Source: Schleiferiaceae bacterium (lineage in GTDB: Bacteria; Bacteroidota; Bacteroidia; Flavobacteriales; Schleiferiaceae). Taken from it: DNA of 11,196 bases. A program made the translations under genes and the position numbers. Positions within the stretch are counted from its first letter, which is position 1. The number at the start of each line of letters is the position of its first letter. This document shows positions 6,347 to 6,585 of this stretch, in pieces. The DNA is taken from contig JAIULY010000090.1 of the NCBI GenBank assembly GCA_022565875.1, positions 1 through 11,196 on the forward strand, in the 5' to 3' direction. The notes under the pieces are model-generated. The model was not told where the DNA came from, searched no databases, and saw nothing but the letters and a program-made list of their open reading frames with translations.

Positions 6347-6505
6347 TCGATTATTCATTCCGTAATTTTTTTTTGGAACACGAAGTTGCAGGAAGTGCAC
6401 ACAAAGGTTCACGAAGGATAAACCGAATCAACGAATAGACGAATCGACAAAAGTTCCCCGTGCCACACAGTGCTCCCCGTGAGCCCCGCGGTGAAAAAAC
6501 TACCC
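6347..6505. repeat. Composite A/B repeat unit 1. The A arm is TTATTCATTCCG + T9 + four degenerate copies of GCACGGAG phased at about 10-11 bp (6347-6420). The B arm is TTCCCCGTGCCACACAGTGCTCCCCGTGAGCCCCGCGGTGAAAAAACTACC (6455-6505).
   Basis: The A arm is repeated at 6523-6585 and 8339-8410. The B arm is repeated at 8419-8470 at about 85% identity. The B arm's CCCCGTG/CTCCCCGTG triplet is roughly the reverse complement of the A arm's CACGGAG triplet, so A and B can form a long imperfect inverted repeat. Confidence 0.7.
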
Positions 6506-6522
6506 GGGCTCGGGAAACGAAT

Positions 6523-6585
6523 TGTTATTCATTGCACGATTTTTTTTTGGACCACGGAGTTGGACACGGAGTGGCACGGAGGAAT
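6523..6585. repeat. A-arm copy 2 (GTTATTCATTGCACG + T9 + GGACCACGGAGTT GGACACGGAGT GGCACGGAGG), without a B arm, directly next to the 3' end of the Uma2 gene
   Basis: Three near-perfect CACGGAG units at 11- and 10-nt spacing, with the same head motif as A1 and A3. Confidence 0.7.

What the first reader, a model, noticed from the sequence alone, without database searches (positions are those of the whole stretch)
6347..6585. Helical-phase (10-11 bp) tandem GCACGGAG triplets following a T9 tract, paired with a complementary CCCCGTG-triplet arm
A-arm sequences such as GGACCACGGAGTTGGACACGGAGTGGCACGGAGG place three copies of CACGGAG on one helical face after TTATTCATT..TTTTTTTTT. The B arm (TTCCCCGTGCCACACAGTGCTCCCCGTGAGCCCCGCGGTG) is their approximate reverse complement and lies about 35 nt downstream. 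As DNA, this resembles iteron- or operator-like arrays for a repeat-binding protein. As RNA, A and B would fold into a long imperfect hairpin of about 30 bp, followed by AAAAAACTACC. The same module occurs three times in the window (6347, 6523, 8339), twice with the B arm.
Basis: seen in the sequence. Interest (0 to 1): 0.55.

Follow-up and report, generated by a model that had tools for sequence, protein, structure and literature searches.

The report
Modular hairpin-forming intergenic repeat cluster
The CACGGAG triplets and their complementary arm are real, but they are one unit type in a 2.6-kb patchwork of non-coding repeats in an uncultured marine-type Bacteroidota genome, resembling the known REP/BIME and MITE repeats rather than a protein operator or a stand-alone RNA gene.

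Summary
Exact CACGGAG occurs five times in the window, always on the + strand and always inside A arms. It sits after a TTATTCATT core and a T-run, at 9-12 nt spacing. Two complementary B arms exist.

The window is a whole contig of a Schleiferiaceae MAG. The finding lies in a 2.6-kb repeat mosaic (5942-8529) between minus-strand genes. Every unit is a core, a T-run, GG and then a short tandem array. The arrays are interchangeable: CACGGAG (period ~10), GGGAG (period 8) or TTTAAGG (period 7).

The B arm plus its tail is an inverted copy of such a unit. A/B is therefore an inverted dimer, as in REPIN/BIME elements.

Two hairpins are significant: B(6454-6493) with A(6549-6582), z about -4.4 on both strands, and unit 8337-8470, z -3.3 on the minus (gene-sense) strand only.

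A 97%-identical strain carries a different array after the same core. The same heptamer-hairpin architecture occurs in an Anaerolinea-related contig and in viral contigs.

There is no Rfam family, no attC sites, no terminator geometry and no plus-strand promoter. Function is inferred, not shown. Genome-wide copy number could not be tested.

The parts
6351..6374 (+). Unit c: core TTATTCATT + CCGTAA + T9
   Evidence: D4/D6
6375..6417 (+). A' arm: degraded heptamer array (CACGAAG, CAGGAAG, ACAAAGG, CACGAAG). It differs from A mainly by G-to-A changes.
6454..6493 (+). B arm: CCCCGTG-type array. It is an inverted copy of an A-type array.
   Evidence: D2, I9; (CACGGGG on minus strand at 6456 and 6475)
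6494..6504 (+). B tail AAAAAACTACC. On the minus strand GGTAGTTTTTTCAC resembles the core + T-run, so B + tail is an inverted unit.
   Evidence: tail pairs with core/T-run region; sequence comparison
6525..6548 (+). Unit d: core TTATTCATT + GCACGA + T9, 174 nt after unit c
   Evidence: D4/D6 (spacing 174)
6549..6582 (+). A arm: three exact CACGGAG at 6553, 6565 and 6575. It pairs with the B arm at 6454-6493.
   Evidence: fold z -4.3/-4.6 for 6447-6590
8339..8362 (+). Unit at 8337: core TTATTCATT + TCACACGCTC + T5
   Evidence: D4
8363..8404 (+). A arm: CACAGAG, CACGGAG, CACGGAG, CACTGAG
8420..8470 (+). B arm and tail of the 8337 unit. The hairpin with the 8363 arm is favoured on the minus strand.
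   Evidence: D2; -48.2, z -3.3 minus; -34.5, z -1.0 plus; 6 wobble-compatible mismatches on minus, 0 on plus
6126..6208 (+). X unit: core TCATTCCGCG + GGGAG-type 8-nt array + linker. Other copies are at 7339-7421 and 8266-8336.
   Evidence: D1
6202..6295 (+). Y unit with inverted Y' (TTTAAGG 7-nt arrays forming a hairpin). A second Y is at 7419-7474.
   Evidence: D3, I1-I3, I7, I11
6623..7228 (-). Uma2-family endonuclease gene embedded in the mosaic. It is bracketed by the X-Y direct repeat.
   Evidence: P0127, 100% identical, named Uma2 family endonuclease
5942..8529 (.). The whole repeat mosaic between the M13 peptidase gene and the T9SS-tail protein gene

Best explanation
The finding is part of a cluster of non-coding, modular intergenic repeats. 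It is analogous to REP/BIME clusters, REPIN dimers and the BrickBuilt MITE.

The basic unit is a roughly 15-nt core ((G)TTATTCATTCCGCG-like), a T-run, GG, and then a short tandem array. The array motif differs between unit types: CACGGAG, GGGAG or TTTAAGG. Units lie head-to-tail, and some are inverted. An A arm next to an inverted unit (B + tail) gives a long imperfect palindrome.

I infer three further steps:
- The arrays grow and decay by slippage and point mutation.
- The units are shuffled by recombination at the shared cores.
- Where the cluster is transcribed with the flanking minus-strand genes, the dimers fold into stem-loops that begin 33-60 nt after stop codons. There they would act as REP-like barriers or processing sites for mRNA 3' ends.

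Shown here: the anatomy, the modularity, the hairpin stability, the strain variability and the recurrence of the architecture elsewhere. Inferred only: transcription, the effect on mRNA and any mobility.
For: - Same core, different arrays: see the alignment of 13 core-anchored segments, families D1/D3/D4, and TRF periods of 10, 8 and 7.
- All four exact cores and all five exact heptamers are on one strand.
- The B tail pairs with the core/T-run region, so B + tail is an inverted unit.
- Significant hairpins: 6447-6590 (z -4.3/-4.6) and 8337-8470 on the minus strand (z -3.3, against -1.0 on plus).
- Both hairpins start 33-60 nt downstream of the Uma2 and T9SS-protein stop codons, in the sense of those genes.
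- A 97%-identical strain (L002, L127) matches the window at about 92% up to the core. It then carries an A-type array where the window has X, and it lacks the Uma2 segment.
- Independent assemblies of the same strain break inside X.
- The same architecture (T-run, 2-4 CACGGAG at 9-11 nt spacing, a loop, then complementary heptamers) occurs between co-directional genes in L130 and L128. L130's ROK protein shares a >=90% cluster with an Anaerolinea sp. protein.
- It also occurs in viral contigs L146, L148 and L149.
- L128 holds further hairpins built from other heptamers.
- Published precedents: mosaic REP clusters and REP dimers that fold as one stem-loop (PMC3733652), and leader + tandem repeat + tail MITEs in Bacteroidota (PMC4596501).
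Against: - Genome-wide copy number is unknown. All copies seen for this organism are in one locus.
- The B pattern found only one chance hit in 185,579 species genomes and none in JGI metagenomes.
- A six-frame peptide query found no spurious ORFs over such repeats elsewhere.
- No transposase or RAYT gene is in the window, and no clear target-site duplication was found.
- Neither strand has a U-run straight after the stem, so this is not a canonical terminator.
- The strand preference of wobble pairs is not consistently the gene-sense strand. L130 and the window favour sense, but two L128 hairpins favour antisense.
- The repeated A-to-G difference between arms may be a single ancestral event.
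- In L130 the heptamers are conserved while the spacers between them are not complementary. That would fit recognition of the motif itself.
- The contig comes from a short-read MAG, and misassembly within the repeats cannot be excluded.
Confidence: 0.5

Rival explanations
1. The A arm is a DNA-level binding array. Tandem CACGGAG sites at one-turn spacing are bound cooperatively by a repeat-binding protein. Candidates are an OmpR/PhoB-type winged-helix regulator, an iteron-binding initiator, or a transposase or nuclease that recognises subterminal repeats. The B arm is an inverted second set of sites.
For: - Heptamer spacing is 9-12 nt (mean about 10.3) in the window, in strain 2 and in L130, L146, L148 and L149.
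- In L130 the heptamers are conserved in both arms, but the 3-4 nt spacers are not complementary.
- The same heptamer recurs in different phyla.
- There is a polarity. With CACGGAG first, 3 of 4 viral hits are true multi-heptamer palindromes. With CTCCGTG first, 0 of 4 are. This is as expected for terminal inverted repeats with defined outer ends.
Against: - The same core carries arrays with other motifs and non-helical periods of 8 and 7.
- L128 has a period-7 heptamer hairpin, and a shuffled-heptamer control also gave a tandem-repeat hairpin, L150.
- No regulator, Rep or transposase gene is nearby.
- The arrays lie downstream of gene 3' ends.
- A and X arrays replace each other upstream of the M13 gene in two near-identical strains.
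- The foreign examples were found by searching for CACGGAG, so its recurrence is partly by construction.
Confidence: 0.17
2. The units are small RNA genes on the plus strand. The core and T-run act as promoter or leader, and the purine-rich GGAG/GGGAG/AAGG arrays act as the functional RNA, for example a sponge for a protein or for a C/U-rich RNA.
For: - All units share one orientation and a conserved upstream core.
- All three array types are purine-rich and resemble Shine-Dalgarno sequences (sequence).
- L128 has TATTTTTG, a perfect TAnnTTTG box, at the T-run.
Against: - No Bacteroidota-type -7 box (TAnnTTTG) occurs on the plus strand anywhere in 5942-8529, while the Uma2 gene has one on the minus strand.
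- Sigma-70-type hits are at background level.
- No terminator follows the units.
- No Rfam family matches.
- The A/B stem of unit 8337-8470 does not form on the plus strand.
Confidence: 0.08
3. The region is neutral debris. It is a locally generated minisatellite-like patchwork, produced by slippage, template switching and unequal recombination. It has no function and no mobility, and is merely tolerated in a long intergenic region.
For: - All copies known for this organism lie in one locus.
- One arm (A') is visibly decaying, and its hairpin is not significant.
- Content varies strongly between strains.
- Tandem-repeat hairpins arise with unrelated motifs too.
Against: - Exact heptamers and cores are kept across units that otherwise differ.
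- Two hairpins are far more stable than shuffles.
- The architecture recurs in other phyla at similar positions between genes.
Confidence: 0.25

Closest known systems
REP elements, BIME clusters and REPIN dimers (GTAG/CGTC-tagged palindromic repeats; PMC3733652, PMC3116915)
   Same: Both are extragenic, mostly downstream of coding regions. Units occur singly, as inverted dimers 20-100 bp apart that can fold as one long stem-loop, and as mosaic clusters interleaved with other repeat families. Content varies between strains.
   Different: The units here are longer. They are built from a core plus a short tandem array, not a single 20-40 bp palindrome. There is no consistent GTAG or CGTC tag: GTAG appears only in the two inverted tails, and the forward cores read GTTA. 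No RAYT gene was seen. Dispersal through the genome is not shown.
BrickBuilt MITE of Porphyromonas gingivalis (PMC4596501)
   Same: Both are in Bacteroidota and always intergenic. Both have a leader + tandem short repeats + tail layout, with partial forms. Both lie next to peptidase and T9SS C-terminal-domain protein genes.
   Different: BrickBuilt has 23-nt repeats without spacers, in up to about 23 copies, with small inverted ends. Here the arrays are 7-12 nt units in 3-4 copies, and the inverted copy of the whole array forms the palindrome. No sequence comparison was possible.
Heptameric STRR repeats of heterocystous cyanobacteria (from my own knowledge: Mazel et al. 1990; not retrieved here)
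   Same: Both are tandem heptamers in intergenic DNA that can occur with inverted copies and form hairpins. The L128 TGGAGAC hairpin looks like this type.
   Different: STRR units are contiguous heptamers. The CACGGAG arrays have 2-5 nt variable spacers, giving a period of about 10. No core or T-run leader is described for STRR.
OmpR/PhoB-type response-regulator boxes (from my own knowledge)
   Same: Both are direct repeats of a 6-7 bp half-site at 10-11 bp centre-to-centre spacing.
   Different: Regulator boxes sit in promoters in 2-4 copies and have no inverted second array. Here the arrays lie after gene 3' ends, are interchangeable with arrays of period 7-8, and belong to a repeat mosaic.

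Membership tests
REP / REPIN (GTAG or CGTC super-families) | Short imperfect palindrome able to fold as a stem-loop, often as inverted dimers | tested here: met
   6447-6590 gives z -4.3/-4.6. 8337-8470 on the minus strand gives z -3.3. B + tail is an inverted unit.
REP / REPIN (GTAG or CGTC super-families) | Conserved unpaired GTAG or CGTC tag at one end of every unit | tested here: not met
   GGTAG is present only in the two inverted tails (minus strand, 6504 and 8470). The forward cores read GTTATTC.
REP / REPIN (GTAG or CGTC super-families) | Tens to thousands of copies dispersed in intergenic regions of the genome | not testable with these tools
   The rest of the MAG could not be reached. 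The B pattern gave one chance hit in species genomes and none in JGI metagenomes. The peptide trick gave 0 hits.
REP / REPIN (GTAG or CGTC super-families) | Associated RAYT (IS200-like tyrosine transposase) in the genome | not testable with these tools
   None among the window's ORFs. The genome is not available.
MITE | Terminal inverted repeats bounding a 100-400 bp non-coding element | tested here: met
   The 8337-8470 unit (134 nt) has imperfect inverted arms from core to tail.
MITE | Target-site duplication and empty or filled sites | tested here: inconclusive
   GTTTGG flanks 8339-8475 on both sides, but it is also part of the neighbouring repeat units. Strain 2 differs by whole modules, not by a clean insertion.
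Integron attC site / cassette array | R'' (RYYYAAC) and R' (GTTRRRY) boxes bounding a 50-150 nt imperfect palindrome | tested here: not met
   A regex and fold scan of both strands found no such pair in 5942-8529; the only pair in the window is at 591-738. No integrase was found among the 10 ORFs scanned against Pfam.
Plasmid or chromosomal iterons | Repeats of 17-22 bp next to a rep/dnaA gene and an AT-rich unwinding region | tested here: not met
   The units are 7 nt plus a variable spacer. Neighbouring genes are an M13 peptidase, Uma2 and a T9SS-tail protein. No GC-skew switch is visible.
Intrinsic (Rho-independent) terminator | GC-rich stem followed directly by a U-run on the transcribed strand | tested here: not met
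   The T-run precedes the palindrome and the A-run follows it, on either strand. The terminator scan is at background and has no hit on the A/B units.
Any curated RNA family (Rfam 15) | Covariance-model score at or above the gathering threshold | tested here: not met
   No hit on 6347-6585 or 8334-8470 even at E<=1. The foreign hairpins give only weak generic miRNA-precursor matches.
OmpR/PhoB-type regulator binding array | Direct repeats of a 6-7 bp site at 10-11 bp spacing | tested here: met
   Spacings are 12, 10 / 9, 11, 10 / 10, 9, 12 in the window, 10, 12, 11 in strain 2 and 10, 11, 10 in L130.
OmpR/PhoB-type regulator binding array | Position in a promoter region with a consistent target gene | tested here: not met
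   The arrays follow gene 3' ends. A and X arrays swap at the same site upstream of the M13 gene in two strains.

The most novel reading that the evidence does not exclude
CACGGAG arrays at one-turn spacing, arranged heads-out around a short loop, may be the recognition ends of an undescribed class of small mobile non-coding elements. These elements would be shared across phyla (Bacteroidota, Chloroflexota, phage-like contigs). A dedicated DNA- or hairpin-binding enzyme would move or shuffle core-plus-array cassettes. The embedded Uma2-family nuclease gene is itself bracketed by direct repeats in two genomes and is absent from a 97% strain. It would be a candidate partner.
Probability: 0.08. 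Interest if true: 0.7.

Novelty: new variant of a known kind. Interest (0 to 1): 0.35.

Why it matters
If the reading is right, this adds a structurally distinct type to the small non-coding repeats of bacteria: a core plus an interchangeable short tandem array, dimerised into long stem-loops. It comes from a poorly sampled lineage, the Schleiferiaceae.

It also has a practical side. Such clusters break short-read assemblies and differ between near-identical strains, so they mark hypervariable loci.

The cross-phylum recurrence of the heads-out heptamer-hairpin architecture hints at a common generating or recognising mechanism. That can now be tested by counting copies in complete genomes and by mapping RNA ends.

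Tried and rejected
- Source genome: a look-up of the M13 peptidase ORF as I delimited it failed. A protein search plus cluster listing showed the window is the whole 11,196-nt contig of a Schleiferiaceae MAG.
- More copies of the B arm: one chance hit in a Limnochordaceae MAG among 185,579 species genomes, and none in JGI metagenomes.
- A chimeric six-frame peptide query, meant to catch spurious ORFs called over the repeats, gave no hit.
- A triple CACGRAG scan of viral contigs returned mostly 12-nt-period tandem repeats (several on giant-virus contigs) that I did not inspect further, and was useless.
- BLAST of the units against plasmids gave no match.
- Flanks of Uma2 homologues in other Flavobacteriales share no extended similarity with the window's repeats, only short motifs.
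- Integron attC reading (prompted by GTTAGGC at 6316 and 8306): no R''/R' pairs.
- Bacteroidota promoter reading of the T-run + GG: no TAnnTTTG box on the plus strand in the region.
- Terminator reading: wrong geometry.
- oriC reading (TTATTCATT resembles a DnaA box at 7 of 9 positions): rejected because of strain hypervariability, the same gene orientation on both sides and no skew switch.
- A literature search for the heptamer found nothing relevant.
- A sense-strand wobble rule: it holds for the window and L130 but fails for two L128 hairpins.

Full report
**Setting.** The window is the complete 11,196-nt contig of a Schleiferiaceae (Flavobacteriales) MAG. The cluster of the M13 peptidase holds MCH8555071.1 on a contig of exactly this length, and the Uma2 protein is found 100% identical on that contig. 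The genes are as follows:
- RtcB, 764-2173 (+)
- a Band-7 protein, 2625-3818 (+)
- M13 peptidase, 3917-5941 (-)
- Uma2-family endonuclease, 6623-7228 (-)
- a protein with a T9SS sorting tail, 8530-10098 (-)

The finding lies in a 2.6-kb stretch (5942-8529). Apart from Uma2, this stretch is non-coding and dense with repeats.

**Check of the observation.** The features are there.
- TTATTCATT occurs exactly four times, always on the + strand, at 6351, 6525, 8262 and 8339.
- At 6351 and 6525 it is followed by six bases, T9 and GG. At 8339 it is followed by T5 and GG (D4/D6).
- Exact CACGGAG occurs five times, all on the + strand and all inside these modules: 6553, 6565, 6575, 8377 and 8388. TRF reports 6547-6581 as three copies of a 10-12 nt unit.
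- The first module (6375-6417) carries a degraded array: CACGAAG, CAGGAAG, ACAAAGG, CACGAAG.
- The complementary B arm occurs twice, at 6454-6493 and 8420-8459. Each is followed by AAAAAACTACC, and the two copies are 86% identical (D2).

The description is therefore accurate, with one geometric caveat.

**What surrounds it.** The A module is one of several unit types that share a single plan. I anchored 13 segments on the core. Each shows (G)TTATTCATTCCGCG-like sequence, 4-6 bases, a T-rich run, GG and then a short tandem array. The array motif differs between types:
- CACGGAG with 2-5 nt spacers (A; period about 10)
- GGGAG-type octamers (X; 6126, 7339, 8266; period 8)
- TTTAAGG heptamers (Y; 6202, 7419; period 7)

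Units follow each other head-to-tail on the + strand. Y is followed by its own inverted copy Y' (6266-6295), which gives a hairpin. The B tail read on the minus strand (GGTAGTTTTTTCAC) resembles the core plus T-run, and it pairs with that region in the predicted folds. B + tail is therefore simply an inverted A-type unit. The stretch 6351-6622 reads unit (A'), inverted unit (B), unit (A), and the two forward units are 174 nt apart.

**Hairpins.**
- 6447-6590 (B with the intact A): -56.5 and -57.5 kcal/mol on the two strands, z -4.3 and -4.6, with 0 of 200 shuffles as stable.
- 8337-8470: -48.2 kcal/mol on the minus strand (z -3.3, 1 of 200), but -34.5 (z -1.0) on the plus strand, where the A/B stem does not form. 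In this unit all six transition mismatches between the arms are G-U compatible on the minus strand and none on the plus strand. These are the same A/G difference repeated in each heptamer, so they may be one event.

All flanking genes are on the minus strand. In that sense the two significant stem-loops begin about 33 nt after the Uma2 stop codon and about 60 nt after the T9SS-protein stop codon.

**Related sequences.**
- Strain 2: contigs from other samples (L002, L127) carry an M13 peptidase 97% identical in protein. Upstream of the gene they match the window at about 92% over 201 nt, up to and including the core TCATTCCGCGATTCTTT. They then continue with an A-type array (CACGGAG ATC CACGGAG TTGGT CACGAAG TTTT ACGGAGG) where the window has X. 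They rejoin the window only near 7994, so this strain lacks the Uma2 segment.
- Same strain: two Logan assemblies end inside X.
- B arm elsewhere: a search of 185,579 species genomes gave only a chance hit, and JGI metagenomes gave none.
- A-arm pattern in metagenomes (TTTTTGG NN CACGGAG N3-5 CACGRAG): three contigs were found. L129 is a chance match in coding-like sequence. L130 and L128 show something the pattern did not require: further heptamers and, after a loop of about 30 nt, three or four complementary CTCCGTG/CTCTGTG copies.
  - L130 has four heptamers and folds at -67.4 kcal/mol (z -8.7).
  - Both elements lie between co-directional genes.
  - L130's ROK protein clusters at 90% or more with an Anaerolinea sp. 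protein, so it comes from another phylum.
  - L128 holds two more hairpins built from other short repeats: TGGAGAC x4 against its complement x5, and GGGAGAGGG palindromes.
- Viral contigs:
  - The pattern with CACGGAG first gave four loci, of which three are true multi-heptamer palindromes (L146, twice in tandem and followed by T6; L148; L149).
  - The opposite order gave four loci and no such palindrome.
  - Two shuffled-heptamer controls gave one tandem-repeat hairpin (L150) and otherwise simple or chance matches.

The numbers are small. They suggest a general class of hairpins built from tandem short repeats, with a heads-out polarity for the CACGGAG type.

**Readings tested and excluded.**
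- No Rfam family matches the units, even at E<=1.
- attC sites are excluded, because the region has no R''/R' pair.
- Terminators are excluded by geometry: the T-run lies before the palindrome and the A-run after it, on either strand.
- A plus-strand promoter is not supported. There is no TAnnTTTG box on the plus strand in the region, whereas Uma2 has TATTTTTG 24 nt upstream of its start on the minus strand.
- No replication, regulator, integrase or transposase gene is present.
- The units are not coding.

**Interpretation.** The best-supported reading is a cluster of modular, hairpin-forming intergenic repeats. It is comparable to three published cases: REP dimers and mosaic clusters that sit mostly downstream of genes, can fold as one stem-loop and vary between strains (PMC3733652); REPINs (PMC3116915); and the leader + tandem-repeat + tail BrickBuilt MITE of another Bacteroidota species (PMC4596501).

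It fails the defining GTAG/CGTC tag of REPs, and dispersal and mobility could not be tested. I therefore file it as a new variant that works like these elements, not as a member of any of them.

The mechanism is inferred, not shown. It has three parts: growth of the arrays by slippage, shuffling of units by recombination at the cores, and stem-loops in the minus-strand transcripts acting on mRNA 3' ends.

The DNA-binding-array reading keeps some weight, for three reasons. The spacing of about 10.3 nt recurs. In L130 the heptamers are conserved in both arms while the spacers are not complementary. The viral scans show a polarity. Against it stand the interchangeable arrays of period 7-8, the position after gene ends and the swap of arrays between strains.

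**Limits.** The contig is a short-read MAG assembly through repeats. The foreign examples were found by searching for the motif itself.

Noticed in passing
window 2308-2480 (+): Directly downstream of rtcB lie tandem tRNA-like modules. There is a YrlA (Y RNA-like) match of 37.5 bits (below the gathering score of 69) at 2308-2370, a second weak match at 2377-2431, and a borderline tRNA call (29.2 bits; ARAGORN calls tRNA-Asn GTT at 2406-2480). In the same-strain contig L125 a WYL-domain gene lies on the other side of rtcB. This looks like an RtcB-associated Y-RNA-like locus in a Flavobacteriales MAG.
   Followed up: partly
window 6126-6254 and 7339-7471; L131 2884-2903 and 3787-3806: The Uma2 gene is bracketed by direct repeats in two genomes. 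In the window it is the 130-nt X-Y module (92% identical). In L131, around an 82% homologue, it is a perfect 20-nt repeat, CAAAACTGTCAACTTTTTTT. The 97% strain (L002/L127) lacks the Uma2 segment. Many close Uma2 homologues sit on contigs of only 0.9-2.5 kb. This hints that the gene is a mobile or recombining cassette.
   Followed up: partly
window 7569-7766 (+): There are three 66-nt tandem units. Each has TAATGATT + a small GC hairpin (such as GCGCC-TGT-GGCGC) + TTTGT. One unit gives a weak Acido-Lenti-1 match (26 bits against a gathering score of 37).
   Followed up: no
window 7990-8255: This is an array of TAAACC (GGTTTAG on the minus strand) punctuating GC-rich hairpins, in the most GC-rich part of the window (0.52-0.55). 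The first 50-60 nt (7994-8053) are 88% identical in strain 2, where both contigs end.
   Followed up: partly
window 6150-6176, 7363-7391, 8290-8308 (+): The X arrays contain three or four G3-G5 runs a few bases apart (for example GGTTTGGGGGTTGGGGAGTTAGGGAG). They could form G-quadruplexes on the plus strand.
   Followed up: no
L128 467-538 and 1655-1734: The contig with a CACGGAG hairpin also holds two other hairpins built from different short repeats, all in intergenic spacers. One is TGGAGAC x4 against AGTCTCC x5. The other is a set of nested GGGAGAGGG/CCCTCTCCC palindromes.
   Followed up: partly
L146 3723-4130 (-): A viral contig has a tandem duplication of a roughly 120-nt unit. Each copy holds a CACAGAG/CACGGAG x4 hairpin followed by T6, so it is terminator-like on that strand.
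   Followed up: no
L136 about 300-330 (upstream of a 78% Uma2 homologue): The palindrome TCTATTCATTTGGCAATGAATAAAC holds the window's core motif TATTCATT and its complement. It is the only trace of the core found outside this organism.
   Followed up: no
L127 2985-5429 compared with window 2625-3818: Downstream of the M13 peptidase, strain 2 has an 814-aa ORF on the opposite strand instead of the Band-7 and RtcB genes. Synteny therefore differs on both sides of the peptidase gene, despite 97% protein identity.
   Followed up: no
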